From IMG/VR virus record IMGVR_UViG_3300045988_132224, positions 1-45,180 of that record: 45,180 nt of DNA; one strand, given 5' to 3'. The notes beneath the pieces are model-generated. The model was not told where the DNA came from. It ran no database searches and saw nothing but the letters and a program-made list of their open reading frames with translations. The DNA comes from a virus. The first letter of the stretch is position 1. Each line of letters begins with the position of its first letter. Positions 4,286 through 34,956 of this stretch are shown one piece after another. Position numbers and translations under genes: made by a program.

Positions 4286-4903
4286 ATGAAAAGCATAGGT
4301 GAACGAATTAAAGAAGCGAGAAAATCGGCTGGATTGACACAATTAGAACTGGCTAAAAAAACAGAGCTTTCCCGCTCTTATATTGGCGATATAGAAAAAG
4401 ATAGGTATAACCCCAGTGTATCTACCCTGCAATTAATAGCTACAGCAACAAATACGCCATTGGAAGATTTACTTCCATCAACTAAGACGGTTTCCCCCGC
4501 AGGCCGGGGCGTCCGCATCCCAGTTCTTGGCCGCGTCGTGGCGGGCATCCCTATCGAAGCCGTGGAGGAAATCCTGGACTACGAAGAAATCACCCCGGAG
4601 CTTGCCGCGACTGGCGAATTTTTTGCATTAAAAATCCGCGGTCACTCGATGGAGCCGCGGATGATGGAAGGCGACGTCGTTATTGTCCGCCGGCAGGATG
4701 ACGTAGAGTCAGGAGATATCGCCATCGTTTTGGTCAATGGCAACGAGGCCACCGTGAAACGCGTGAAAAAGCAGGAAGACGGCATCACCCTGATTGCAAC
4801 GAACACGTCTGTATACGAACCGCATTACTACTCCAACAAGGAAATTGAAGAACTCCCGGTCCGTATCCTCGGCAGAGTCGTTGAGCTTCGGGGGAAGATG
4901 TAA
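4286..4903 (+). CDS. CI/LexA-like repressor (XRE HTH plus S24 autopeptidase domain)
   Basis: HTH GLTQLELAKKTELSRSYIGDIEKDRYNPS. Putative cleavage site VVAG. Ser in GHSMEP and Lys in ATVKRV form the S24 dyad. Confidence 0.9.
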   Translation: MKSIGERIKEARKSAGLTQLELAKKTELSRSYIGDIEKDRYNPSVSTLQLIATATNTPLEDLLPSTKTVSPAGRGVRIPVLGRVVAGIPIEAVEEILDYEEITPELAATGEFFALKIRGHSMEPRMMEGDVVIVRRQDDVESGDIAIVLVNGNEATVKRVKKQEDGITLIATNTSVYEPHYYSNKEIEELPVRILGRVVELRGKM

Positions 4904-5399: not shown

Positions 5400-6165
5400 T
5401 TTCGATTGGATTGCTGAATATTACCAATGGATAAAAAAGAATTTATCTGCCAGACGGTTAAAAAATGGATGGACAGAAATCGGCACACCGTTTATGGACC
5501 GTCATAATGATGGGCTGGTAATCTACGCTAAGAGGGATGGGGACAGCATCACTTTATCTGATGATGGATATATTATTAACGACTTGATTGCTGACGGCGT
5601 TTCCTTACGCGGTTCTAAGCGAGCCGCTTTTTTAAACGGTCTCCTTTTTTCTTATGGCGTCGAAAACCAAGACAATGAAATGGTGATGCGTACTACCCCA
5701 AAAAACTATGCTGTAAGTATGCATATGTTTATTCAAGCTATGCTTGCCGTAAATGATATGTTTATGTTAAACAATGCTACAATAAAAACCATTTTCTTGG
5801 ATGATGTCGCTAATTATTTTGACCAACAAGGCCTTATCTATACTCCAAACTTTTTGGCTAAAGGCAGTACAGGCCTGGAATTTAATTTCAACTTCCAGAT
5901 TGCTGGACGAACGTCAGAAATACTTATCAATTCATTTAATTCTATCAACCGAGGGAATCTTGCGGCGTTCCTATTTGATTGGCAGGATATACGTGATGAA
6001 CGACAGAAAAGGTCCCGTAAGAAAGTGAAAGGCTTAGCAATCATTAACGACGAAAAGGAAGTTGACAGAAAATATTTGGATGCATTGATCGCTAAAGGTA
6101 CAGACTATATTCTTTTTTCCGAACGATTGAAGCCTGAAAATCTCCAAAAATTAACGGCGGCCTAA
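5389..6165 (+). CDS. Hypothetical protein; from memory resembles DUF1828 (N) plus DUF1829 (C) family proteins
   Basis: SD GGAGGTG lies 7 nt before the ATG at 5389. It overlaps the upstream stop by 11 nt, suggesting translational coupling. Motif GWTEIGTPFMDRHNDGLVIYAKRDGDSITLSDDGY. Confidence 0.6.
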   Translation: MDTNFDWIAEYYQWIKKNLSARRLKNGWTEIGTPFMDRHNDGLVIYAKRDGDSITLSDDGYIINDLIADGVSLRGSKRAAFLNGLLFSYGVENQDNEMVMRTTPKNYAVSMHMFIQAMLAVNDMFMLNNATIKTIFLDDVANYFDQQGLIYTPNFLAKGSTGLEFNFNFQIAGRTSEILINSFNSINRGNLAAFLFDWQDIRDERQKRSRKKVKGLAIINDEKEVDRKYLDALIAKGTDYILFSERLKPENLQKLTAA

Positions 6166-6749: not shown

Positions 6750-7520
6750 ATGAAAGATATGAGCCATCCTTTACCTAAATCCCATATACTTGTAAAACGC
6801 TATAGAAAATTTGCAAATTTTCTCAAAATGACGAGTAACAAAAATTTCCAGCGATTTATGTTGTGGATTCAACACTATATACAGCTGAAGTTTAATGAAA
6901 AAGAATTCAAATCAACCTTTTTACCAAAATATGAAGAAGGACAAATTATTTTTGTTGATTTCGGCTGCGGTATATCTCATGAATTTAGCTATCCTCATTA
7001 TGCAGTTGTTTTAAACTTGCATGATCGCAAGAAAAGCAACTTGCTTACTGTAGTACCTATGACATCAAAAAAGCCCAAACACAAAATATTAAAGCCATGG
7101 GAACATGAATTACAGTGTACAGTTCCTGATTTATTAGCTATGAAAGCCATGTCTGAATTTGACTTACAAAAACCTGAGTACAAGGATTTGCGAAATGATG
7201 TTATCCAGTTATTTTTACAAAATACCACTAAAGAGGAATTTGACAAAAGGCATCATGAGCTTATCGAAAGAGGCGTACAGGCTATATACAATAACAACTA
7301 TGACATTATGAGTTTTAGAGAAAAAATGAAGCAAGGGAGTATCGTTGAAACAAATCAAATCCGCACAATCAGTAAGTCCAGGATAATATTCCCAACGAAA
7401 AAATTACATCCACTTTATGATATTAAAGTTGATAAGCAAGACTTGTCTATCATTAAGTGGAAAATAATGAAAAATATTGTCATAGATATTATTGACAAAC
7501 CTGATGAAGAGCGTATATAA
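6750..7520 (+). CDS. Oversized MazF/PemK-fold toxin-like protein (N-terminal extension and ~95-aa insertion)
   Basis: GQIIFVDFGCGISHEFSYPHYAVVLN...LLTVVPMTSKK and GSIVETNQIRTISKSRI match the two conserved MazF/PemK/EndoA blocks (compare [25 protein letters not shown] and DSVILLEQIRTIDKQRL). Confidence 0.65.
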   Translation: MKDMSHPLPKSHILVKRYRKFANFLKMTSNKNFQRFMLWIQHYIQLKFNEKEFKSTFLPKYEEGQIIFVDFGCGISHEFSYPHYAVVLNLHDRKKSNLLTVVPMTSKKPKHKILKPWEHELQCTVPDLLAMKAMSEFDLQKPEYKDLRNDVIQLFLQNTTKEEFDKRHHELIERGVQAIYNNNYDIMSFREKMKQGSIVETNQIRTISKSRIIFPTKKLHPLYDIKVDKQDLSIIKWKIMKNIVIDIIDKPDEERI

Positions 7521-7590
7521 TGGAACTACAAATTGGGCTGTGAATCCCAAAAAATATTTTCCATTATTGTCTCCATTCGGAGGCAAAAAG

Positions 7591-7619
7591 AAAGGCGCTC
7601 TATGCAGAGCGCCTTTTTT
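7591..7619 (+). terminator. Rho-independent terminator after the MazF-like gene
   Basis: aaaggcgctc-tatgca-gagcgccttt stem-loop followed by a T-run. Confidence 0.8.
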
Positions 7620-7644
7620 GATTGCGTATTTGTCTATAAAAAAA

Positions 7645-7706
7645 TCCCGGTACCGTGCTGGAACACGATACCGGGATATGCCGCAGGTGCTGGAACACCT
7701 ACGGCG
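7645..7706. other. Two tandem hairpins with identical CTGGAA loops
   Basis: tcccggtaccgtg-CTGGAA-cacgataccggga at 7645-7676 (13-bp stem, 1 mismatch). ccgcaggtg-CTGGAA-cacctacgg at 7681-7704. The first is followed by a T-run on the minus strand, so it can act as a minus-strand terminator. Confidence 0.55.
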
Positions 7707-7794
7707 CTGTAAATCTACACACACGACTACGGGGGCTGATTTACGCTATCAGTATATCACATCAGCCTCCCTTTACGCAAAGGAGGTTATTTTT

Positions 7795-8874
7795 ATGACC
7801 GATTTAACCTATCACTTCTCTTTCAGAGAAAAGGATCGCGGCTGGCAGGTCATCTTATCGTACAAAGACCAGGCGGGACGCTGGAAGCAGAAGTCACGCC
7901 AGGGTCTGGCCACCAAAAAGGCTGCCAAAGCCGCCGGCGAAAAGCTCCTGGTCGACGTACTCGATGCAATGAAGAGCCAGCCAATTGCGCCGGAGCTCGT
8001 CGACATCTCCCTGGCAGAATTTGCAGAATACGTTTTCCGCAGCCGCAACCTGACGTATAACTCCGTCCTGGCCTATCGCTACGCGCTGAAGAATTACGGC
8101 CCGAAGCTTCTGGCCATGCCGGTCCGTAAAATCACCTATCTAGACATCCAGCAGGCGATGAGCGCCTGGCAATGTGCTGATGCCAGCTACCAGCTCTATG
8201 TAACCTGCCTCAAGATGGTCCTGTCCTACGCTGTCGAGCCCTACCATCTCCGGCAGGATAACCCAGCCATCCACTTGAAGCCCAGGAAGCTGAACCGCCG
8301 GCACAAGATCCGGGCGCTGACGCAGACCGAATTTGACCAGCTTATGGGAAGCATGGAGACCCGTCCGATGAAATACTATGCCATGTGTGCCATTGCTGGA
8401 TATACCGGAATGCGAGTAGGCGAAATTATGGCCCTCACTTGGGATGACGTAGATCTAAAAGAGCGACAGATTAGTGTTACCAAGCAATACGGCCGTATTG
8501 CCCATAAGAAGCGCGGGATCATGAACATCAAAAACAAGGCCGCCGGGCATCGTGTCATCCCCATTCCCGTCAAACTGCAGCAAATCCTATTGGCCTATCG
8601 CCGTTCCGAGCCGCGGCAAATAAATGGGCAGCTATTCCCGCATAGCCAGTTCTATAAATCACTAGATGGATACATAAAGAAGATTGTCCCTGATGCATCT
8701 ATCCATAGTTTACGTCACACCTATGCAACGATGCTGCTGGCCAATGGCACCGACATCAAGACCGTGGCAGCGCTCCTCGGCGACACGGTTACCACGGTTT
8801 TAAATGTCTACGTGGATTATACAGACGACATGAGACGGAAAGCCGCGCAGTCAATTGAAAAAATTTTTGCGTAG
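7795..8874 (+). CDS. int: Tyrosine integrase (lysogeny integrase)
   Basis: SD AAAGGAGG precedes the ATG at 7795, and the upstream part of ORF 7492 is discounted. Motifs AGYTGMRVGEI, HSLRHTYATML and LNVYVDY match the R...HxxR...Y pattern. It sits next to the repressor module and putative attP. Confidence 0.9.
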   Translation: MTDLTYHFSFREKDRGWQVILSYKDQAGRWKQKSRQGLATKKAAKAAGEKLLVDVLDAMKSQPIAPELVDISLAEFAEYVFRSRNLTYNSVLAYRYALKNYGPKLLAMPVRKITYLDIQQAMSAWQCADASYQLYVTCLKMVLSYAVEPYHLRQDNPAIHLKPRKLNRRHKIRALTQTEFDQLMGSMETRPMKYYAMCAIAGYTGMRVGEIMALTWDDVDLKERQISVTKQYGRIAHKKRGIMNIKNKAAGHRVIPIPVKLQQILLAYRRSEPRQINGQLFPHSQFYKSLDGYIKKIVPDASIHSLRHTYATMLLANGTDIKTVAALLGDTVTTVLNVYVDYTDDMRRKAAQSIEKIFA

Positions 8875-9095
8875 AAATTTTTGACGAATTTTTGCCGTTT
8901 TAAGTAAGAATGGCTTAACCATGCGGCCTAATAGGCAAAATAGATTCAATACCACATTATACTGTGATTTGCGCCTGTTTTGCAACCATTTCACGTAAAT
9001 TTAGAAAAATAGCGAGTTTTGGTATTTCTAGTATAAAATGATTCATTTATTTTTACGTAGTTTTATTTCTTTTTTTTGACGAATTTTTGACGACA
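8860..9095. promoter_or_regulatory. Putative attP region with arm-type direct repeats
   Basis: TTTTTGACGAATTTTTG(C/A)CG occurs at 8878-8897 and 9073-9092. A shorter AATTTTTGCG copy lies at about 8863-8872. The intervening sequence is AT-rich, and the region is immediately 3' of int. Confidence 0.45.
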
Positions 9096-9112
9096 GGCTG
9101 ATGTGATACAGA

Positions 9113-9150
9113 AAAGTGGCGTCCACTCGCAATGGAATGGGCGCCATTTT
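9113..9150 (-). terminator. Terminator of the peptide/HTH unit
   Basis: On the minus strand: atggcgccc...gggcgccac-type stem followed by TTTTC. Confidence 0.5.
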
Positions 9151-9153
9151 TCT

Positions 9154-9357
9154 TTATTTCCCTGGCTCTGGCCCGTAAAGTCGCTCCATTCCTGCACGGG
9201 TTACAAGCCAAATCCGCCCGGCTTTTCTGGCCTCTGTAGGCAAAAATTTTGGCTTTGCTTTAGCATATCCGCTACAAGCCTGCTGTACTGTGATTGGGGC
9301 TTTCCCCCATTTTTCAGCAGCTTCTGCTGCGGTCATGACTTCTTCTAAACAATTCAT
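9154..9357 (-). CDS. Small HTH DNA-binding protein (Xis-like or autoregulator-like)
   Basis: The ATG at 9357 overlaps the TGA of the upstream peptide (TGATG). Motif TAAEAAEKWGKAPITVQQAC...GRIWLVTRAGMERL. Confidence 0.6.
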   Translation of the reverse strand: MNCLEEVMTAAEAAEKWGKAPITVQQACSGYAKAKPKFLPTEARKAGRIWLVTRAGMERLYGPEPGK

Positions 9358-9434
9358 CAAAACGCCCCCAGTGCTTTTAATAATGCAATGATTGAGATGA
9401 CTAACGCTACTAAACTAATATATATTGATTTCAT
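9357..9434 (-). CDS. 25-aa hydrophobic peptide MKSIYISLVALVISIIALLKALGAF
   Basis: Hand translation; below the ORF-track cut-off. Its stop is coupled to the HTH gene start. Confidence 0.45.
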   Translation of the reverse strand: MKSIYISLVALVISIIALLKALGAF

Positions 9435-9502
9435 TTTATCAGATGTGATATACTAACCCTAAGCAGGAAGCCCGCCCCTCTAGGAGGGGCAAGCTCTTTA
9501 GC

Positions 9503-9589
9503 TTAACGGGAAAAACCTTGTAGCAGCAATATGATTGCAGTCACTAGCTGAATTATTGCTGTTATAAGGTTTATTTTTTCGGGTTTCAC
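9503..9589 (-). CDS. 28-aa hydrophobic peptide MKPEKINLITAIIQLVTAIILLLQGFSR
   Basis: Hand translation. GTG start lies 8 nt after SD GGAGG. Followed by the GC hairpin gcccctc-tag-gaggggc (9474-9490). Confidence 0.45.
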   Translation of the reverse strand: MKPEKINLITAIIQLVTAIILLLQGFSR

Positions 9590-9616
9590 ATCTTTCACCT
9601 CCTTCTCTATGAGTAT

Positions 9617-9659
9617 ATTATACCTTAATTCCGGCTATTTGTCAATGTTTAAACATTGA
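9617..9659 (-). promoter_or_regulatory. Perfect consensus promoter TTGACA-17-TATAAT overlapped by an 18-bp perfect palindrome
   Basis: On the minus strand, TTGACA lies at 9645-9640 and TATAAT at 9622-9617, with a 17-nt spacer. The palindrome TCAATGTTTAAACATTGA lies at 9642-9659. Confidence 0.7.
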
Positions 9660-9678
9660 ATTGGTGGGGAAAATATAC

Positions 9679-9711
9679 CCGCAACCCTATTATTTACGTA
9701 GGATTGCGGGA
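9679..9711 (-). terminator. Terminator ending the late/lysis operon
   Basis: cccgcaa...ttgcggg stem, followed on the minus strand by TATATTTTCC. Confidence 0.6.
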
Positions 9712-9717
9712 TTTTTA

Positions 9718-10002
9718 TTAGTTATTTTCCGCTGTTGTACTCTTGCTCAGCACAAATTTAATGGCCCAAATCGTGCCATTAATCAAGAGCGGCAAAACAA
9801 ATTTATCACGGATAGCATTCCAGCCAGTTTCGGACGCGGCATGCGCCTGTACCTGTGTCACAAACTTATCCGCTACGGATTCAAGCGCGGTCATCCCTTC
9901 AGTGCTCAAGCTTTCAATGATCTGCTGTTTCGCAGATTCTACTACATCGCTTGCATCCAGTGCTGACAACACGCCGTCACGTACTTCTGTCCATTTACTC
10001 AT
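9718..10002 (-). CDS. Hypothetical protein distal to the endolysin (C-terminal hydrophobic segment)
   Basis: ORF track; starts 3 nt after the amidase stop. Contains FVLPLLINGTIWAIKFVL. Confidence 0.55.
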   Translation of the reverse strand: MSKWTEVRDGVLSALDASDVVESAKQQIIESLSTEGMTALESVADKFVTQVQAHAASETGWNAIRDKFVLPLLINGTIWAIKFVLSKSTTAENN

Positions 10003-10004
10003 AG

Positions 10005-10562
10005 CTAATTCCCTCCTAAAATTTTCTGTTCGTAATCGGTAATTCCGCGAGCTACAGCGCGGGCCAAATCATCTTGATTATTTGCCAAAATCGCTTCATC
10101 GCCGGGGTTAGAAATAAAGGCAAGCTCAACTAGTACCGCCGGCATATCTGTATTGGTCAAAACATATAACCCATTAACACCAGGGGTTGCAATTTTTACG
10201 CCTCGATCATTGGTATCAAGGGCATCGACCAGCTGGTTCTGGATGCAGTCTGCAAGCATACTGCCGCGATAGCTTCCGGCGCAGGCCCATGTTTCAGTGC
10301 CGTTGGCCTCTTCTGCGTCGGCAGCATTGCAGTGGATGGACACGAAGATGTCGGCATCGCTGGAATTGGCGGCTTCACAGATTTCTTCTAAGCTATCGGA
10401 CTGAAGCAACGCTGTTTCGACGCCGGCCGCATTCAGGTAACTTTCCGCAGATTGACCGACTGCCAAAGCGACATCGCACTCACGAAGACCAGTTGCATCG
10501 TTTACGGCGCCCGGATCCGGTTTTCCGCCAGGTGCATGGCCTGGATTCAAAAATACTTTCAT
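10005..10562 (-). CDS. N-acetylmuramoyl-L-alanine amidase endolysin (Amidase_3 type)
   Basis: MKVFLNPGHAPGG...IFVSIHCNA...VLVELAFISN motifs. The ATG at 10562 overlaps the holin stop (ATGA). The upstream part of ORF 10005..10712 is discounted. Confidence 0.85.
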   Translation of the reverse strand: MKVFLNPGHAPGGKPDPGAVNDATGLRECDVALAVGQSAESYLNAAGVETALLQSDSLEEICEAANSSDADIFVSIHCNAADAEEANGTETWACAGSYRGSMLADCIQNQLVDALDTNDRGVKIATPGVNGLYVLTNTDMPAVLVELAFISNPGDEAILANNQDDLARAVARGITDYEQKILGGN

Positions 10563-10747
10563 TTTTTCTCTTCTCCTTTCGTCTGGGTGGCGGACTTTAC
10601 GGTGCCGCCGATGTAACCGAGAAGCCCTGAAGCAATGGACATACCCAGCTCGTTCAAGGCATAAAAAATCGCCAGAATCAAGGCCGTTACCAGCCCGATA
10701 ATGACGAGACAATCTGCGATATTCACTTTTTCAAACATTTCTACCAC
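10559..10747 (-). CDS. Holin (two TM segments, charged C-terminus)
   Basis: 62 aa, with CLVIIGLVTALILAIFYAL and SIASGLLGYIGG segments and a KGEEKK tail. Lies immediately upstream of the amidase. Confidence 0.7.
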   Translation of the reverse strand: MVEMFEKVNIADCLVIIGLVTALILAIFYALNELGMSIASGLLGYIGGTVKSATQTKGEEKK

Positions 10748-10758
10748 CTACATACGCA

Positions 10759-10971
10759 CTACATACGCGACAATACGGATGTCAGCACAGACGAAAAAAT
10801 GCCCACAACTGTGACACTTGTCCCGAGTGTCCAGCAAATGTCATGTTTGAGATCATCGATTCGATGATGGGCCGATTTGCCGGCTTCGACGGCTTGGACG
10901 ACCTCACGATTGAGATTCGTCAGCTGCCGTTCTATCCTATCCAAGCGAGTCATTAATTCAGTATCATTCAT
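10759..10971 (-). CDS. XhlA-like lysis-associated membrane protein
   Basis: N-terminal coiled coil (LDRIERQLTNLNREV) plus a C-terminal TM, positioned before the holin as in PBSX xhlA-xhlB-xlyA. Confidence 0.6.
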   Translation of the reverse strand: MNDTELMTRLDRIERQLTNLNREVVQAVEAGKSAHHRIDDLKHDICWTLGTSVTVVGIFSSVLTSVLSRM

Positions 10972-11059: not shown

Positions 11060-12094
11060 GTGATACTATTGAAACTACCAAATGGATTCGGCACGGTCTA
11101 CAAAATGCAAGGGAATCGTCGCCGTCCTTACGTGGCAAAGAAGACAATACAAGGGAAACAAAAGCCTATCGGCTATTTTGAAACATTCGAGGAGGCCATG
11201 GCCTGTCTCGTCGAGTATAATCGCGACCCTGCCTTGCTGAGTCCGAGCAAGACAACTTTTGCCGAGGTCTACGCGCTTTGGAAGGCCCAGCACTTCCCGC
11301 GCCTCCGAAGTGATTCTGCGCGCATCAGCTACAAAAATTCGTATCGTCATTGCTCCCGCCTCCATCAAATGATTTTCGTGGACATCCGGCTCGGCCACCT
11401 CGACCATGTCATTGACGATGTGCGTCATGCAGGCTGCGGATACCCAACGCAGAAGAAAGTCCGCTCTCTGCTCGAGCAGCTTTACAAGTACGCAATACGA
11501 TATGACCTGGTCGTCAAAGATTATGCCCGATATCTCGATATTGACCGACCTCGTAAACTGCACAAGAAAAAGCCGTTTACCGTCCGTCAGCGCAACCGCT
11601 TGTGGCGTGGCGTTGATGATGTGCCCGAAGCACGTCATGTCCTCATGCTCATATACTCGGGATGCCGTGTCGGTGAGTACCGTCATATCCGGAAGACTGA
11701 CGTCAAGCTGCGCCGTCGCGTCATCGTGATCCGGCACAGCAAGACCGATGCCGGTGCGGGCAGGCTTATCCCCATCCCTCGCAAGCTCATGCCATGGTAC
11801 GAGGAGGCTATGCAGACTCCCGGACTCTACATCTGCGGACGCGCAGATGGCAGCCGTCACAGCTACGACTCTTTCCGCCGCGCTATCTTTGACCCTGTCA
11901 TGCACCACTTCGGCATGTCGCATACGCCGCATGAGTGCCGCCACACGCTTGCCAGTATGCTTGACTCTGCCGATGTCAACCGCACCGTCATCAAGCTCAT
12001 CCTCGGACACAGCCTCGAAGGTGTGACCGAACGTGTCTACACGCATAAGAGCATCCGCGAATTGCTGAGAGCCATCGACAAGGTCTGTACTTGA
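11060..12094 (+). CDS. Second tyrosine recombinase (Arm-type N-terminal DNA-binding domain); candidate tail-fibre invertase
   Basis: LPNGFGTVYKMQGNRRRPYVAKK arm-binding-like N-terminus. Catalytic-pattern motifs SGCRVGEY, HECRHTLAS, LGHS and ERVYTH. The likely start is the TTG at 11069. Confidence 0.85.
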   Translation: MILLKLPNGFGTVYKMQGNRRRPYVAKKTIQGKQKPIGYFETFEEAMACLVEYNRDPALLSPSKTTFAEVYALWKAQHFPRLRSDSARISYKNSYRHCSRLHQMIFVDIRLGHLDHVIDDVRHAGCGYPTQKKVRSLLEQLYKYAIRYDLVVKDYARYLDIDRPRKLHKKKPFTVRQRNRLWRGVDDVPEARHVLMLIYSGCRVGEYRHIRKTDVKLRRRVIVIRHSKTDAGAGRLIPIPRKLMPWYEEAMQTPGLYICGRADGSRHSYDSFRRAIFDPVMHHFGMSHTPHECRHTLASMLDSADVNRTVIKLILGHSLEGVTERVYTHKSIRELLRAIDKVCT

Positions 12095-12266: not shown

Positions 12267-12449
12267 TTATTTGTCAGTGTCCGACTGACCAGAATCCCCG
12301 TCAGCCGTTGCCTTGCCTTCCTCGGCAGCTTTTTCGGTGTCATGCGTCTGCGTCCGGATATAATCCGCACATTTTTCATTTCGGCACCAGCCTTCAGCAT
12401 CCAATTTATGCCCGCAGAATGGGCAACGTTTTGCTCTTGCCATAATCAT
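12267..12449 (-). CDS. Small zinc-ribbon protein
   Basis: CPFCGHKLDAEGWCRNEKC motif. ATGA overlap with the upstream gene. Confidence 0.55.
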   Translation of the reverse strand: MIMARAKRCPFCGHKLDAEGWCRNEKCADYIRTQTHDTEKAAEEGKATADGDSGQSDTDK

Positions 12450-12859
12450 TCAGCTCCTTTCAATGCAGCTTCATACTCGGCCTTAACTTCTGCATACTCT
12501 GATTTCAGCTCGGCAATCAAAGACTCATCGCCAGCCAGCGTAGCAGTCGCAAGTGCATCTTTGAGCTCACTAATCTGCGACTCATAATCCGCCGCAATCG
12601 ACGCCTGCTTCTGCTCCGTCGTCACAATAATTGCCGGTGCATCAGTCGGCTTGCCATCCGCGCCGCGAATATAGCCCGTACCATTAGCGCCCGTGCCGCG
12701 ATTACCAACATAGTACGCATAATCATCATCCGATGTTTCGATGTATCCGTCATCGAGATACTTCTGCTTTTCTTCTGCTGTCGAAAAATGAATGCCGTCT
12801 GCAACGGTCGCAATGCGATTACCGTCAAAATCAAATTTGCATAAATACATAAAAATCAT
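12446..12859 (-). CDS. Tail-fibre-associated hypothetical protein (XkdW-position gene); start possibly 12850
   Basis: ORF track. Lies between the tail fibre and lysis genes, as XkdW/XkdX do in PBSX-like elements. Confidence 0.55.
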   Translation of the reverse strand: MIFMYLCKFDFDGNRIATVADGIHFSTAEEKQKYLDDGYIETSDDDYAYYVGNRGTGANGTGYIRGADGKPTDAPAIIVTTEQKQASIAADYESQISELKDALATATLAGDESLIAELKSEYAEVKAEYEAALKGAE

Positions 12860-12877
12860 CCTTTCTTAATTTAATTT

Positions 12878-12889
12878 ACAGTGGGGAAG
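12878..12889 (+). repeat. Crossover site S1: ACAGTGGGGAAG
   Basis: Read directly; one of four copies of this motif. Confidence 0.8.
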
Positions 12890-13079
12890 TAACCGCTATG
12901 GATGGGTGGCTTTTCCGGTGGCTTTCGCTCAGTTTCGTAAGCTTGTGACCAACCACCAAGGCGTGTCGTGGATGCAGTCACAGGCCCGAGAATCGGTCAC
13001 GCTTGCTGGGTTTACGTTAGACGTAGGGGATAATAATAAACAAGACTGCGATGCCCAATGGATCGCCATTGGGCAATAG
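12879..13079 (+). other. Silent tail-fibre tip cassette A (66 codons, no start codon)
   Basis: QWGSNRYGWVAFPVAFAQFRKLVTNHQGVSWMQSQARESVTLAGFTLDVGDNNKQDCDAQWIAIGQ*. Its stop directly abuts S2. Confidence 0.7.
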
Positions 13080-13091
13080 ACAGTGGGGAAA
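13080..13091 (+). repeat. Crossover site S2: ACAGTGGGGAAA
   Basis: Read directly. Confidence 0.8.
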
Positions 13092-13323
13092 TGCTAGTAT
13101 CAATGACGGTAGGACATACGGCGATTTCTTACTACCGATTTCGGTATCTGATGTTCTGGCCGTATTTGCCCTCGATTATGATAACAGCTCAACAAATGGG
13201 ACAACGATTGGCGATTACTATACAGTGACTTATAAGCCATCATTTTCGAATGGCTCGAGATTACGATTTGTAACTAAAGGGGTATCGATAGGCGGATTTT
13301 GCGTTTTTGTTATTTGCAAATAG
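13081..13323 (+). other. Silent tail-fibre tip cassette B (80 codons)
   Basis: QWGNASINDGRTYGDFLLPISVSDVLAVFALDYDNSSTNGTTIGDYYTVTYKPSFSNGSRLRFVTKGVSIGGFCVFVICK*. This is the distal part of ORF 13051..13323. Confidence 0.7.
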
Positions 13324-13489
13324 CGATATAAAATATCACATACTCATTACTTGTACCTAACCATTTATTGGTTTTCAAAGAATAGGTCTCTGGTCGCGTG
13401 GATAAGCCTTCGTGCATCCCGACGATAGCTATTAAATTCGCTGCTATCGGCAGGATAAGATTTTTATTTTCAGTGCTTCTTCCCCACTG
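13310..13489 (-). other. Silent tail-fibre tip cassette C (59 codons)
   Basis: QWGRSTENKNLILPIAANLIAIVGMHEGLSTRPETYSLKTNKWLGTSNEYVIFYIAICK*. It starts at S3 directly after the expressed gene's stop. Confidence 0.7.
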
Positions 13490-13490
13490 T
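13479..13490 (-). repeat. Crossover site S3: ACAGTGGGGAAG (minus strand)
   Basis: cttccccactgt on the plus strand, immediately 3' of the tail-fibre stop codon. Confidence 0.8.
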
Positions 13491-14297
13491 TTACTTGGTG
13501 ATGGCTAAATAAAAGCACGTCCCAGACGAAATGCTAGCATCGTTGACAATTTGGATATACCCATCATTACTGCCAGTTGCTGATATAAAATGGTTCGAGT
13601 CCTTATTATCCCAGATTGATATGACATATCGTAATATACTAGCTGATACTGGTAGATTAATGTGATTCTGGCTATTGACCACTCCCCACTGTATAATTAG
13701 GCCGCCGCAATTCGGGCCAAAGCAAATGTAGCCATTTTGGTCCATTAGCCCAGTGATGCCCAGTCGATGATTTGTAAACTTTTTCCCGTCCCAGGTTACG
13801 TCTGCCCCCGTTGCAAGATTTGCAATCATCGTACCCAGTCTTGCAAGGGTTGCCGCCGGCGCTTCTTTCCAATCACTAGCCCCGGTAGCAGCCTTAATTC
13901 TGTTGGCCAGTTCAGACACTTGATTTCTAAGTGTATCAGTATCTGAGGTTGGAACTAGTGTATCTTTTATAGTTGACGTCATAGAACTGTGCGCATCGGT
14001 AGCTTCATTATGGGATTTTACTACTTCTTCGCCATTAGCCAAAATAGCTTTACCAAGGTTTGCCGTAATTGTTTGTACATCATTATCATTGCAGTCATAT
14101 CCTTTTCCCACGATGAAATCAGCGATGGCTTTACACATGGAGCTGACCTGGAAGTAAAGCTTATTATGCAACCGGGACAACGCAATCCCGGGGATAACGC
14201 CGCTTTGCCGCTGGGTAGCGTTTGCATACTCGCTGTCATTGAATGTATGTTCTTTCGTATGATCTTCGTTAAAAATCTTGAAATTGGTAGATGCCAT
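13491..14297 (-). CDS. Tail fibre protein (currently expressed tip variant D)
   Basis: ORF track. It is the last structural gene after baseplate J and the DUF2612-like gene. The C-terminal 66 aa begin QWG at S4. Confidence 0.75.
   Translation of the reverse strand: MASTNFKIFNEDHTKEHTFNDSEYANATQRQSGVIPGIALSRLHNKLYFQVSSMCKAIADFIVGKGYDCNDNDVQTITANLGKAILANGEEVVKSHNEATDAHSSMTSTIKDTLVPTSDTDTLRNQVSELANRIKAATGASDWKEAPAATLARLGTMIANLATGADVTWDGKKFTNHRLGITGLMDQNGYICFGPNCGGLIIQWGVVNSQNHINLPVSASILRYVISIWDNKDSNHFISATGSNDGYIQIVNDASISSGTCFYLAITK
13681..13692 (-). repeat. Crossover site S4: ACAGTGGGGAGT (minus strand), inside the tail-fibre gene
   Basis: actccccactgt on the plus strand. It encodes I-Q-W-G, 66 codons before the stop. 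Confidence 0.8.
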
Positions 14298-14312
14298 ATA
14301 TATTCCCTCCTA

Positions 14313-14963
14313 TTATCCCCATCGGCCCGAATCATATCCGGACAATCTGGACGTATCAGTATCATAAGCAAATGACATTTCGTCGCCTTGTTCAATCCAA
14401 TTCCCTTTATCGTATCCAGCAATGACGTCGTTTCCGGTGTCGTATCCGAAAACATGGTCATTTGCAAAGTATGCGTTTACGAGGACTGACTGCGGCTTGG
14501 GGATAATGTCTCCATTACGAATCATTAGTTGAGTAATTTTATCAAGCCCATTGGATATAATCACCACATCAATGGTCATATCTTGATTATCTTCAATTAA
14601 GATTGGAGTACCAAATAATACCTTCCATGTTGTTGCCAGATCTTGAATGCCGCCTTTCCACATATTTTTTGATATTTTAGCCATTAGTAATGAGCGGAAA
14701 TTCGCATTATCTAATATAGGATTTAAATTAAATTCAGGTTGATATCCTAACATTCGTGATGCACCGATAATCTCACCGAGCACATCTTCCTGCACACCAT
14801 CAGCATAATCCAGGTCAAAGTCATCATCGAGTTCAACTCCTAATGAAAAAATCTCGTTGCTATGTGAAAGGAGTGCTCGTACCATGCTCATGTATTTGGG
14901 TTTATCTCGATGTTCGCCGGTGATGAGCTTCAAGTAGTTATCGACAAATTCCATACCTATCAC
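14313..14963 (-). CDS. Baseplate/tail-fibre base protein (DUF2612-like by memory)
   Basis: ORF track; position after baseplate J. Overlapping ATGA-type junction. Confidence 0.55.
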   Translation of the reverse strand: MIGMEFVDNYLKLITGEHRDKPKYMSMVRALLSHSNEIFSLGVELDDDFDLDYADGVQEDVLGEIIGASRMLGYQPEFNLNPILDNANFRSLLMAKISKNMWKGGIQDLATTWKVLFGTPILIEDNQDMTIDVVIISNGLDKITQLMIRNGDIIPKPQSVLVNAYFANDHVFGYDTGNDVIAGYDKGNWIEQGDEMSFAYDTDTSRLSGYDSGRWG

Positions 14964-34691: not shown

Positions 34692-34780
34692 TGGCGGAAA
34701 GTGTGGGATTCGAACCCACGGTGCGTTGCCGCATCACTAGTTTTCAAGACTAGCTCCTTAAACCACTCGGACACCTTTCC
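34692..34780 (-). tRNA. tRNA-Ser (anticodon UGA), CCA encoded
   Basis: Hand-folded: acceptor GGAAAGG/ACTTTCC, anticodon arm CTAGT-CTTGAAA-ACTAG, long variable arm, T-arm GTGGG-TTCGAAT-CCCAC. Confidence 0.85.
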
Positions 34781-34785
34781 ATGGC

Positions 34786-34861
34786 TGGCAGGAACGGAAG
34801 GACTCGAACCTTCAACAAATGGTTTTGGAGACCACTACTCTACCAGTTGAGCTACGTCCCT
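34786..34861 (-). tRNA. tRNA-Trp (anticodon CCA), CCA encoded
   Basis: Hand-folded: anticodon arm GTGGT-CTCCAAA-ACCAT, T-arm GAAGG-TTCGAGT-CCTTC. Confidence 0.85.
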
Positions 34862-34882
34862 ATGATATGCCCCAAAAGGGGA

Positions 34883-34956
34883 GGGCGGAGGCTGGACTCG
34901 AACCAGCGACAATGGGGCTTGCAAACCCTTGGCTCTACCAACTGAGCTACTCCGCC
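34883..34956 (-). tRNA. tRNA-like gene with irregular anticodon arm (UGC or GCA anticodon possible), no encoded CCA
   Basis: The acceptor (GGCGGAG/CTCCGCC), D-arm and T-arm (GCTGG-TTCGAGT-CCAGC) are perfect. The segment CAAGGGTTTGCAAGCCCCATTGTC is 1 nt too long and does not form a 5-bp stem with a 7-nt loop. Confidence 0.6.

What the first reader, a model, noticed from the sequence alone, without database searches (positions are those of the whole stretch)
9154..9659. Autonomous unit next to attP: consensus promoter with palindromic operator, two tiny hydrophobic peptides and a coupled HTH protein
The late/lysis operon ends at a terminator (9679-9711). After it lies a perfect TTGACA-17-TATAAT promoter on the minus strand (9645-9617), the best promoter I can see in the window. 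Its -35 element is overlapped by the 18-bp perfect palindrome TCAATGTTTAAACATTGA (9642-9659). The promoter drives a 28-aa peptide (MKPEKINLITAIIQLVTAIILLLQGFSR, good SD), then a GC hairpin. Next comes a 25-aa peptide (MKSIYISLVALVISIIALLKALGAF) whose TGA overlaps the ATG of a 67-aa HTH protein, and then a terminator. In the integrated state this unit would sit at the prophage end, the classic moron position. The peptides resemble small membrane toxins (type I toxin or holin-like size and composition). The HTH protein plus palindrome looks like an autoregulator. This could be an undescribed toxin/regulator, exclusion or lysis-timing module. The HTH could alternatively be the excisionase.
Basis: partly seen in the sequence, partly recalled or inferred. 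Interest (0 to 1): 0.72.

Follow-up and report, generated by a model that had tools for sequence, protein, structure and literature searches.

The report
Phage toxin-antisense cassette with autoregulator
The unit is a real, self-contained gene cassette found in many phages of Megasphaera/Veillonella-type gut bacteria: two tiny membrane peptides, a conserved opposing promoter that should make an antisense RNA against the first peptide, and a small DNA-binding protein that appears to control the cassette's promoter, so it looks like a new kind of type I toxin-antitoxin module.

Summary
I collected 130 loci that encode relatives of the 67-aa protein (Pfam HTH_59). They give 82 distinct upstream regions. 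About 45 carry the same cassette:
- a terminator, then a consensus TTGACA-17-TATAAT promoter holding a dyad;
- a strong SD and peptide A, then a GC hairpin;
- peptide B abutting or overlapping the HTH_59 gene, then a terminator.

Both peptides are under purifying selection (pN/pS about 0.33).

Just 3' of the hairpin, on the opposite strand, lies a conserved extended -10 promoter (TRTGnTATAAT). In the window it is at + strand 9443-9454, with a predicted start at 9461. It should produce an antisense RNA across the hairpin and peptide A, which is the layout of a type I toxin-antitoxin.

Promoter-dyad similarity tracks HTH similarity (Mantel rho 0.29, p<=0.0005) but not the adjacent peptide A. This supports autoregulation. 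Peptides A and B co-vary with each other and are swapped as a pair.

The cassette sits next to attP in some phages and between an ArpU-like gene and HNH-terminase in others, so it is a mobile moron. An excisionase role is not favoured. Toxicity, the antisense transcript and DNA binding are all untested.

The parts
9678..9710 (.). Terminator of the lysis operon. It reads as a terminator in both directions: an A-run on one side and a T-run on the other. It is the predicted 3' end of the antisense RNA.
   Evidence: Inverted repeat I12; sequence; fold of 9461-9722 on the + strand ends in this hairpin followed by AUUUUUAUU.
9642..9659 (.). 18-bp perfect palindrome TCAATGTTTAAACATTGA overlapping the -35 element. 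It is the candidate operator for the HTH_59 protein.
   Evidence: Unique in the window. Conserved in L050, L051 and L001, which carry the same HTH subtype. In most other loci the dyad lies in the promoter spacer instead.
9617..9645 (-). Promoter P_A: TTGACA (9645-9640), 17-nt spacer, TATAAT (9622-9617). Predicted transcription start near 9610.
   Evidence: 12 of 12 match. The best match scored 10-12 of 12 at least 250 nt upstream of HTH_59 in 48 of 82 distinct loci, 11-12 of 12 in most of them.
9503..9589 (-). Peptide A: 28 aa, MKPEKINLITAIIQLVTAIILLLQGFSR. GTG start; SD GGAGG at 9602-9598. Proposed membrane toxin.
   Evidence: Homologous or analogous peptides at the same position in 39 or more loci. 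pN/pS 0.34. ORF RNA more structured than codon shuffles (window z = -3.4; mean -2.65 over 39 loci). No Pfam or NCBIfam family.
9460..9505 (-). GC-rich stem-loop (core 9468-9496) starting at the peptide A stop codon. Proposed leaky terminator of the peptide A mRNA; its complement forms the 5' stem-loop of the antisense RNA.
   Evidence: z = -5.3 in the window. All 34 loci tested have z < -3.3 (mean -4.95) although the sequences differ. Fold.
9425..9461 (+). Convergent antisense promoter P_as: -35 TTGATT (9425-9430), TGTG-A-TATACT (9443-9454), predicted start at A 9461. It points through the hairpin into peptide A.
   Evidence: One search lists it with TG. Over 39 loci, 21 match TGnTATAAT at 8 of 8 and 13 at 7 of 8, 30-74 nt (mostly 36-59) after the peptide A stop; the sense strand gives 0 at 8 of 8 and shuffles average 5.5. 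Position matrix over 38 loci: T37 G36 n T38 A36 T34 A32 A32 T38, TT at the -35 position, A at +7.
9461..9722 (+). Predicted non-coding antisense RNA, about 260 nt if it runs to the upstream terminator. It would be complementary to the hairpin, all of peptide A, its SD and P_A. The 3' end is inferred.
   Evidence: No ORF of 20 aa or more on the + strand between 9461 and 9650. Fold z = -6.35. No Rfam family.
9357..9434 (-). Peptide B: 25 aa, MKSIYISLVALVISIIALLKALGAF. No SD. Its stop overlaps the HTH start codon.
   Evidence: A membrane ORF abutting or overlapping the HTH start was detected in 37 of 39 loci; one of these, the doubtful locus L039, is not hydrophobic. pN/pS 0.33. Co-varies with peptide A (Mantel rho 0.43, p<=0.0005).
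9154..9357 (-). 67-aa HTH_59 protein with a MerR/excisionase-like winged helix. Proposed autorepressor of P_A.
   Evidence: PF20038, E 2.8e-28. AF2 model pLDDT 84.9. Best folds: CadR/NmlR DNA-binding domains, BldC, TraN, RacA, RdfS, with TM 0.5-0.62 and non-significant E-values. Spacer similarity tracks HTH similarity, rho 0.29, p<=0.0005.
9112..9146 (-). Terminator closing the cassette.
   Evidence: Clear A-run/hairpin/T-run terminators at the same place in L050 and L051.
8875..9111 (.). Probable attP region between the cassette and the convergent integrase (7795-8874, + strand). This is context, not part of the cassette.
   Evidence: Direct arm-type repeat TTTTTGACGAATTTTTG at 8878-8897 and 9073-9092 (D1). 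Integrase with an Arm-DNA-bind_4 domain. Relatives are found both integrated and in the excised gene order.

Best explanation
The unit is one copy of a mobile phage cassette (a moron) that works like a type I toxin-antitoxin wired to a protein autoregulator.

- A consensus sigma-A-type promoter (P_A) carries a dyad operator and transcribes peptide A. Peptide A is a 28-aa membrane peptide with a strong SD and is the proposed toxin.
- Its mRNA ends in a conserved GC hairpin.
- Immediately beyond that hairpin, a conserved TRTGnTATAAT promoter on the other strand (P_as) fires back through the hairpin and across peptide A. The resulting cis-antisense RNA should pair with the peptide A mRNA and block its translation or trigger its cleavage. 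Convergent transcription may add interference.
- Transcripts that read through the hairpin encode peptide B and the HTH_59 protein. Peptide B is a second membrane peptide that co-evolves with peptide A, so it is a partner or immunity peptide, or a second toxin. It abuts or overlaps the HTH_59 gene.
- The HTH_59 protein binds the dyad at P_A and closes a negative feedback loop.

What is shown: the anatomy, its conservation, coding selection on both peptides, conservation of the antisense promoter, operator-HTH co-variation, and mobility of the cassette.

What is inferred: the antisense transcript and its 3' end, toxicity of peptide A, the role of peptide B, DNA binding by HTH_59, and the biological pay-off (prophage maintenance, exclusion or abortive infection).
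For: 1. **Conserved architecture.** It is found in about 45 of 82 distinct HTH_59 loci from Negativicutes genomes and viral contigs.
2. **Antisense promoter.** 21 of 39 loci are perfect and 13 of 39 have one mismatch to TGnTATAAT on the antisense strand, at a near-fixed distance after the hairpin. The sense strand gives 0 of 39 perfect matches; the best match in shuffles averages 5.5 of 8. A TT lies at the -35 position with a 17-nt spacer, and a conserved A lies at +7.
3. **Hairpin.** Present in 34 of 34 loci with mean z = -4.95 despite sequence divergence. The peptide A ORF RNA is extra-structured, mean z = -2.65.
4. **Coding selection.** pN/pS 0.34 for peptide A and 0.33 for peptide B.
5. 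**Co-variation.** Mantel tests: promoter spacer vs HTH rho 0.29, p<=0.0005; spacer vs peptide A rho -0.01, p 0.6; peptide A vs peptide B rho 0.43, p<=0.0005.
6. **Mosaicism.**
   - Against L050/L051, the window is 81-100% identical over the lysis-operon end, terminator, palindrome and promoter, and mostly 86-100% identical in the HTH gene.
   - The peptide A-hairpin-peptide B segment is only 31-66% identical.
   - L084 shares its operator and HTH subtype with L116/L117/L120, yet has different peptides.
7. **Autonomy and mobility.** Terminators on both sides. Position after the lysis genes next to attP in some phages, and between DUF1492 and HNH-TerS-TerL in about 45 viral contigs.
8. **Fold.** The HTH_59 model resembles MerR-type DNA-binding domains, which bind dyads in promoter spacers.
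9. **Precedent.** Prophage-borne type I systems with two small toxin ORFs on one mRNA and an antisense RNA between them (yonT-yoyJ/SR6, PMC5848175). C. difficile prophage toxins with a hydrophobic N-terminus and a lysine-rich tail resemble the peptide A variants of L007, L010, L011 and L096 (PMC7699646).
Against: - There is no transcript, translation or toxicity data.
- The peptides match no known toxin family and the antisense region matches no Rfam family.
- The antisense RNA has no terminator of its own close to the hairpin, so its length is a guess.
- The -10 motif is AT-rich and near-palindromic. On the sense strand it also gives a weaker TATTAT or CATTAT that could be a promoter for peptide B and HTH, possibly leaderless in some loci. 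It also serves as the U-rich tail of the hairpin.
- Known type I systems do not include a protein regulator or a coupled second gene pair.
- Consensus promoters with a dyad in the spacer occur widely in viral contigs with other cargos. The dyad therefore does not by itself point to HTH_59.
- In the window the dyad sits over the -35 element, not in the spacer.
Confidence: 0.5

Rival explanations
1. The HTH_59 protein is the phage's excisionase (recombination directionality factor), possibly doubling as a transcription regulator like P2 Cox or 186 Apl. The peptides would be unrelated cargo.
For: - PHROG 2655, annotated 'excisionase', matches at E 7.8e-15.
- The fold is of the MerR/Xis/BldC/TraN/RdfS type.
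- In the window and several relatives the gene is the last one before attP and converges on int.
- No other Xis-like gene was seen in the lysogeny operon.
- A 9-mer, TATCACATC, occurs upstream of pepB-HTH, at the attP edge and upstream of int. That is 3 copies where 0.4 are expected.
- A Geobacillus phage homologue is annotated as excisionase.
Against: - The 'excisionase' labels are annotations, not experiments.
- In about 45 viral contigs the same cassette lies between an ArpU-like gene and HNH-terminase, not at attP.
- The window, L050 and L051 have 91-96% identical HTH proteins, but the sequence beyond the terminator differs, including the arm-type repeats.
- The palindrome has no copy in attP.
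- The 9-mer is largely explained as the TRTG-extended -10 of two antisense promoters.
- A constitutive consensus promoter in front of an excisionase would destabilise the prophage.
Confidence: 0.15
2. The peptides are non-toxic membrane effectors expressed from the prophage, for example superinfection exclusion at the DNA-entry step or modulation of lysis timing. HTH_59 sets their level. The opposing promoter only tunes or insulates transcription and is not an antitoxin.
For: - The cassette is in a moron position, has its own strong promoter, and encodes two small co-evolving single-pass or double-pass membrane peptides.
- In the window it lies next to the lysis genes.
- The peptides match no known toxin family.
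Against: - A precisely placed, highly conserved antisense promoter and extra RNA structure over peptide A are the hallmarks of products that must be kept off. They are unusual for exclusion proteins.
- The cassette occurs away from lysis genes, and the window already has holin-like genes at 10559-10971.
Confidence: 0.22
3. Peptide A is a leader peptide. Its translation controls formation of the hairpin terminator and thereby the expression of peptide B and HTH_59 (attenuation).
For: The hairpin core begins only about 8-11 nt after the stop codon in most loci. A terminating ribosome would therefore mask its 5' arm. Peptide B and HTH have no obvious promoter of their own.
Against: - Peptide A is under protein-level purifying selection, forms distinct families that co-vary with peptide B, and always contains a membrane helix. 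Leader peptides are not constrained in this way.
- No alternative anti-terminator structure was found.
- This model does not explain the antisense promoter.
Confidence: 0.06

Closest known systems
yonT-yoyJ/SR6 type I toxin-antitoxin of Bacillus subtilis prophage SPbeta (PMC5848175); also bsrG/SR4 and txpA/RatA (the last two from my own knowledge)
   Same: It is prophage-borne. Two small toxin-type ORFs lie on one polycistronic mRNA, and an antisense RNA gene lies between them, convergent with the first ORF and overlapping its 3' end or terminator region.
   Different: - There is no sequence similarity.
- Here the antisense promoter lies upstream of the second ORF's start codon, so the RNA should not cover that ORF.
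- The antisense RNA may run across the whole first ORF and its promoter.
- A DNA-binding protein overlaps or abuts the second ORF, and the promoter carries a dyad operator.
- The hosts are diderm Negativicutes.
Clostridioides difficile prophage type I toxin-antitoxins, CD0977.1/RCd11 and others (PMC7699646)
   Same: These are small phage-encoded toxins with a hydrophobic N-terminus and a lysine- or arginine-rich tail. Peptide A variants of related loci (L007, L010, L011, L096) have the same form. They have a cis-antisense antitoxin and a proposed role in prophage maintenance.
   Different: - The window's peptide A has no basic tail.
- No homology was detected.
- The C. difficile loci have no partner peptide and no HTH gene.
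Pfam PF20038 (HTH_59), within the MerR/excisionase-like winged-helix superfamily
   Same: The 67-aa protein is a full-length member (E 2.8e-28, above the gathering score). Its model has the beta-helix-helix-wing-helix topology of Xis, BldC, TraN and MerR N-terminal domains.
   Different: - The family has no tested function.
- MerR regulators have a dimerisation helix and effector domain and act on 19-20-bp spacers. Here the protein is 67 aa and the spacer is 17 bp.
- Xis proteins usually bind direct repeats in attP, whereas here the candidate site is a palindrome at a promoter.
Dual-function excisionase/repressors: P2 Cox, 186 Apl, P4 Vis (from my own knowledge)
   Same: They are small winged-helix proteins that could both regulate a promoter and act at attP. 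In the window the gene lies beside attP.
   Different: Linkage to attP/int is not conserved, the palindrome is absent from attP, and the same protein is paired with different att arms.

Membership tests
Type I toxin-antitoxin system | Small (under about 60 aa) hydrophobic or membrane peptide as toxin | tested here: met
   Peptide A is 28 aa with one hydrophobic helix. It is under purifying selection. Toxicity itself was not tested.
Type I toxin-antitoxin system | Antisense RNA gene overlapping or complementary to the toxin mRNA | tested here: inconclusive
   A conserved convergent TRTGnTATAAT promoter with a conserved +7 A points into peptide A. The predicted RNA is structured and non-coding. 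No transcript evidence is available with these tools.
Type I toxin-antitoxin system | Toxin overexpression arrests growth or kills, and the RNA neutralises it | not testable with these tools
   This needs expression experiments.
Known type I toxin and antitoxin families (Fst/Ldr, TxpA/BsrG, Hok, Ibs, TisB, Hol-Tox; Rfam antitoxin RNAs) | Significant match to the family profile | tested here: not met
   None of 61 peptide A or B sequences gave a consistent Pfam or NCBIfam hit; there were only scattered single-member weak hits (window peptides). Rfam gave nothing near gathering scores.
Pfam HTH_59 (PF20038) | Score above the curated gathering threshold over the full domain | tested here: met
   98.1 bits against a cut-off of 27, covering residues 1-64 of 67. 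All 117 homologues carry PF20038.
Excisionase / recombination directionality factor | Xis-type winged-helix fold | tested here: inconclusive
   The topology fits. Foldseek hits include RdfS, BldC, TraN and MerR domains with TM 0.5-0.62, but all have E > 0.3.
Excisionase / recombination directionality factor | Conserved association with a cognate integrase and attP, and co-variation with them | tested here: not met
   The association holds in the window. However, the cassette is mid-genome between DUF1492 and HNH-terminase in about 45 contigs. HTH proteins that are 91-96% identical flank different att arms.
Excisionase / recombination directionality factor | Binding sites in an attP arm | tested here: inconclusive
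   The palindrome has no copy in 8875-9150. A 9-mer shared with two promoter regions lies at the attP edge, 9100-9108. Binding itself was not testable.
Holin / antiholin | Part of the lysis cassette and co-transcribed with the endolysin | tested here: not met
   A terminator and its own promoter separate it from the endolysin/orf94 operon. The cassette occurs away from lysis genes in other phages. There are no holin family hits for the window peptides.
MerR-family regulator | N-terminal winged helix plus a long dimerisation helix and effector domain; operator dyad in a 19-20-bp spacer | tested here: not met
   The dyad does lie in the spacer in most loci. However, the spacer is 17 bp and the protein is only 67 aa with no coiled coil.
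Peptide-signalling pairs (arbitrium AimR/AimP, Rgg/SHP) | Receptor with a peptide-binding (TPR-like) domain next to a short pro-peptide gene | tested here: not met
   The only protein is a 67-aa single-domain HTH.

The most novel reading that the evidence does not exclude
This is an undescribed class of phage cassette, widespread in Negativicutes phages. In it, a type I toxin/antisense-RNA pair is physically and regulatorily fused to a second, co-evolving membrane peptide and to a MerR/Xis-like autorepressor.

The cassette is built from two exchangeable sub-modules: operator plus HTH, and peptide A plus hairpin plus antisense promoter plus peptide B. It would serve as a prophage-addiction, abortive-infection or exclusion device.
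Probability: 0.35. Interest if true: 0.75.

Novelty: new variant of a known kind. Interest (0 to 1): 0.66.

Why it matters
- **A blind spot in annotation.** The peptides are 25-50 aa, unannotated and absent from family libraries, yet they are conserved and under selection in many gut and rumen phage genomes. Nothing comparable turned up for Negativicutes (Megasphaera, Veillonella, Dialister, Acidaminococcus) in the family libraries or the paper searches run here.
- **A possible function for HTH_59.** The family has no tested function and is sometimes labelled excisionase by similarity alone. This work suggests it is a cassette-specific autoregulator.
- **A new wiring for type I systems.** If confirmed, type I systems would include ones with a protein feedback loop and a partner peptide. 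The modular design, with operator-HTH and peptide pairs reassorting, would be a tractable case of moron evolution.
- **Practical use.** The elements could serve as counter-selection markers or tightly controlled promoters for genetically difficult Negativicutes.

Tried and rejected
- **blastn of 8875-9720 against isolated phages:** no match.
- **Rfam at gathering and permissive thresholds:** nothing relevant.
- **PADLOC:** nothing except a weak mad1 hit at E 0.04.
- **PDB sequence search:** only E about 0.1-0.7 to 434 Cro/repressor. This was not followed, because the model has a winged-helix rather than an XRE topology.
- **My first automatic hairpin and terminator finders were too strict** and missed obvious structures. 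I replaced the first with folding of the stop-to-motif segment. I read the upstream terminators by eye, so the statement that many of them are bidirectional is only semi-quantitative.
- **Is the promoter type TTGACAATAC-N12-GTATAAT exclusive to HTH_59 cassettes?** It is not. Only 6 of 122 sampled viral hits carry HTH_59. The dyad design is general, so I relied on co-variation instead.
- **Readings considered and rejected:** SHP/Rgg-like or arbitrium-like signalling (no receptor domain), spanin or lipoprotein (no Cys, too short), and a protein encoded on the antisense strand (no ORF).
Full report
**Observation**

- The lysis operon comprises an Amidase_3 endolysin at 10005-10550 and a 94-aa ORF at 9718-10002. 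It ends in a hairpin with arms 9678-9689 and 9699-9710.
- Next comes a 12-of-12 TTGACA-17-TATAAT promoter at 9645..9617. The perfect 18-bp palindrome at 9642-9659 overlaps its -35 element and is unique in the window.
- An SD (GGAGG, 9602-9598) precedes a 28-aa hydrophobic ORF at 9589-9503, here called peptide A.
- A GC stem-loop follows (core 9468-9496).
- A 25-aa hydrophobic ORF at 9434-9357 (peptide B) has a TGA that shares one base with the ATG of a 67-aa ORF at 9357-9154. A terminator follows at 9146-9112.
- The 67-aa protein is a full-length Pfam HTH_59 domain (PF20038, E 2.8e-28).

One correction: a second perfect promoter, with an 18-nt spacer, exists at 7492-7521 on the + strand.

**Genomic setting**

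The window has the gene order of an excised or circular temperate phage.
- On the + strand: a cI-like repressor (HTH_3 + Peptidase_S24, 4286-4903), DUF6978, DUF1828/1829, a PemK-like protein and a tyrosine integrase (7795-8874).
- On the - strand: Bro/ANT antirepressors and, from about 10 kb onwards, the lysis and structural genes.
- The 280 bp between int and the cassette carry a direct arm-type repeat at 8878-8897 and 9073-9092. This fits attP, although I did not map the core.

The nearest relatives of the HTH protein are from Megasphaera, Acidaminococcus, Veillonella, Dialister and Selenomonas.

**The unit is a conserved cassette**

I fetched 49 genome loci and 80 viral-contig loci that encode HTH_59 relatives. 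They give 82 distinct upstream regions.
- In 48 of them the best TTGACA-16/18-TATAAT match scores 10-12 of 12 (11-12 in most). It lies at least 250 nt, and up to about 435 nt, upstream of the HTH gene.
- After the promoter comes a strong SD (usually GGAGGTG) and a 25-53-aa ORF with a membrane helix. A second 24-55-aa membrane ORF follows, ending within a few bases of, or overlapping, the HTH start.
- Three main peptide classes recur:
  - class I, as in the window, with two peptides of about 25-31 aa;
  - class II, with a 30-aa peptide A and a 43-48-aa two-helix peptide B;
  - class III, with a peptide A that has a very basic K/R tail and a 45-52-aa peptide B.
- Both ORFs evolve under purifying selection. 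Uncorrected pN/pS is 0.34 for A over 9 pairs and 0.33 for B over 8 pairs.
- None of 61 peptides gives a consistent match to any Pfam or NCBIfam family.

In every locus examined, a very stable hairpin follows the peptide A stop codon. All 34 loci have z < -3.3, with a mean of -4.95, although the sequences are unrelated.

Directly after the hairpin the sense strand reads yATTATATCAyA. On the opposite strand this is TRTGnTATAAT, the extended -10 typical of Firmicutes promoters (that it is typical is from my own knowledge).
- Over 39 distinct loci, 21 match TGnTATAAT at 8 of 8 positions and 13 at 7 of 8. The motif lies 30-74 nt (mostly 36-59) after the stop codon.
- The sense strand never reaches 8 of 8. 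Shuffles average a best score of 5.5.
- The position matrix over 38 loci is T37 G36 n T38 A36 T34 A32 A32 T38. A TT lies where a -35 element with a 17-nt spacer would start, and an A lies 7 nt downstream in 28 of 38 loci.
- In the window this promoter is at + strand 9425-9454 (TTGATT-18-TATACT, preceded by TGTG; also listed). The predicted start is A 9461, at the foot of the hairpin.

The transcript would be antisense to the hairpin and to peptide A.
- It contains no ORF of 20 aa or more.
- If it continues, it meets the lysis-operon terminator, which also reads as a terminator on the + strand. That would give an RNA of about 260 nt with z = -6.35.
- Many relatives likewise have an A-run/hairpin/T-run terminator just upstream of the promoter. 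I judged this partly by eye.
- The peptide A ORFs are themselves more structured than codon-shuffled controls (mean z = -2.65; 26 of 39 below -2). This fits selection on an RNA, in either sense.
- The peptide A SD is unpaired in the predicted mRNA.

**The HTH protein and the dyad**

The AlphaFold model (pLDDT 84.9) has a strand, two helices, a beta-hairpin wing and a final helix. Foldseek's best matches are the DNA-binding domains of MerR-family proteins bound to promoter DNA (CadR, NmlR), plus BldC, TraN, RacA and the RdfS excisionase. TM-scores are 0.5-0.62, but all E-values exceed 0.3. The fold class is therefore plausible, not proven.

In most loci the promoter spacer holds an inverted repeat of the form ATAC-N-centre-N'-GTAT that runs into the -10 element.
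- Examples are ATACACGTTTAAACGTGTAT, ATACCGTATATACGGTAT and ATACCAATAATTATTGGTAT.
- In the window, L050, L051 and L001, a palindrome over the -35 element takes its place.

A Mantel test on 35 loci gave the following:

| Comparison | rho | p |
|---|---|---|
| Promoter spacer vs HTH (300-400 nt away) | 0.29 | <=0.0005 |
| Promoter spacer vs peptide A (adjacent) | -0.01 | 0.6 |
| Promoter spacer vs peptide B | 0.06 | 0.12 |
| Peptide A vs peptide B | 0.43 | <=0.0005 |

Concrete cases agree with this.
- **Window vs L050/L051.**
  - They are 81-100% identical over the lysis-operon end, terminator, palindrome and promoter.
  - They are mostly 86-100% identical in the HTH gene.
  - They are only 31-66% identical across peptide A, the hairpin and peptide B.
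- **L084 vs L116/L117/L120.** These share an operator and an HTH subtype but carry different peptide classes.

The cassette thus consists of two co-evolving pairs that reassort: operator with HTH, and peptide A with peptide B. This is the best available evidence that HTH_59 acts at its own promoter.

One caveat applies. Consensus promoters with a dyad in the spacer are common in viral contigs with other cargos (6 of 122 sampled hits carry HTH_59; 46 of 122 have 8 or more of 10 dyad pairs, against about 4% expected by chance). The design is therefore general, and the assignment of HTH_59 to the dyad rests on co-variation alone.

**Mobility**

In one set of phages the cassette follows the lysis genes.
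- It is the last phage feature before host DNA in integrated copies: L131 and L132 and L051.
- It faces a convergent integrase in contigs with the excised gene order: the window and L134.

In about 45 viral contigs it lies between a DUF1492 (ArpU-like) gene and HNH-TerS-TerL. Two or more peptide classes occupy that same slot. Both places are boundaries between transcription units. This is moron behaviour.

**Mechanism proposed**

1. P_A drives peptide A, and the hairpin stops most transcripts.
2. P_as makes a cis-antisense RNA that pairs with the peptide A mRNA. Convergent transcription may add interference.
3. Read-through yields peptide B and HTH_59.
4. HTH_59 represses P_A through the dyad.

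This is how a type I toxin-antitoxin works, with a protein feedback loop added.
- The closest described layout is yonT-yoyJ/SR6 of prophage SPbeta. It has two small toxins on one mRNA and an antisense RNA gene between them (PMC5848175).
- The basic-tailed peptide A variants resemble the C. difficile prophage toxins, which help to keep the prophage (PMC7699646).

Everything from the existence of the antisense RNA onward is inference.

**Rivals**

- **Excisionase.** This is supported by a PHROG label, the fold class, and the position in the window. It is weakened by three findings: the mid-genome position in many phages, near-identical HTH proteins next to different att arms, and the absence of the palindrome from attP.
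- **Non-toxic exclusion or lysis-timing peptides.** This cannot be excluded, but it does not explain the antisense promoter or the RNA structure.
- **Leader-peptide attenuation.** This does not fit protein-level selection or the co-variation of the two peptides.

**Verdict**

The cassette is best filed as a new variant of the type I toxin-antitoxin kind, carrying an HTH_59 autoregulator. Membership in any known toxin or antitoxin family was tested and not met. Confidence is high (about 0.85) for the anatomy and its conservation, and moderate (about 0.5) for the toxin-antisense mechanism.

Noticed in passing
window 7492-7795: A second perfect promoter (TTGACA-18-TATAAT, + strand, 7492-7521) lies at the end of the PemK-like gene. 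Hairpins follow at 7533-7550, 7591-7616 (reads as a terminator both ways) and 7644-7677 (a terminator on the - strand), then the integrase ATG at 7795. On the - strand at 7763-7751 is GATGTGATATACT, the same 13-mer as the cassette's antisense promoter. This suggests an antisense small RNA of about 100 nt (about 7744 to 7637) opposite the integrase leader.
   Followed up: partly
window 7755-7763 (+), 9100-9108 (-), 9442-9450 (-): The 9-mer TATCACATC occurs three times where 0.4 are expected; 0 of 100 shuffles reach 3. The copies upstream of int and just after the HTH terminator share 15 of 17 bases (GTATATCACATCAGCCT vs CTGTATCACATCAGCCT). Two copies are explained as extended -10 promoters. The copy at the attP edge has a poor -10 and is unexplained. 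L051 keeps CATACCACATCAGC at the same place.
   Followed up: partly
window 11060-12094 (+) and 12352-14343: A second tyrosine recombinase sits in opposite orientation between the lysis and tail-fibre/baseplate genes. The same synteny is seen in many related phages. A 16-nt inverted repeat (12352-12367 and 14328-14343, 88% complementary) brackets about 2 kb of tail-fibre-like ORFs. This could be an invertible host-range segment.
   Followed up: partly
window 6750-7520 (+): A 256-aa protein with a PemK/MazF-like domain (Pfam E 3.8e-9; PHROG 1412) lies immediately upstream of the integrase. The same pairing of a PemK-like gene with int is seen in L134.
   Followed up: no
loci L141-L260 (IMG/VR): Consensus promoters of the form TTGACAATAC-N12-GTATAAT with a strong dyad in the spacer are common in viral contigs with unrelated cargos. 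For example, ATACGCTAATATTAGCGTAT recurs in 10 of the sampled loci. Some are followed by other small winged-helix proteins (L145, L228) or an XRE protein (L197). This looks like a general design for a repressible strong promoter in phages.
   Followed up: partly
L004 (Megasphaera massiliensis NP3), about 5780-6144: This is a decayed copy of the window-type cassette. Peptide A lacks its promoter and start codon, peptide B is intact, and the HTH gene has an internal TGA. Its peptide segment is the closest relative of the window's (mostly 56-86% identity in 30-nt windows).
   Followed up: partly
window 34692-34956 (-): Three phage-borne tRNA genes (Ser-TGA, Trp-CCA, Cys-GCA) lie upstream of the packaging genes.
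   Followed up: no
window 8956-8985 (-): A 10-of-12 promoter-like site (TTGCAA-18-TATAAT) lies inside the presumed attP region. It points into the 3' end of the integrase gene in antisense.
   Followed up: no
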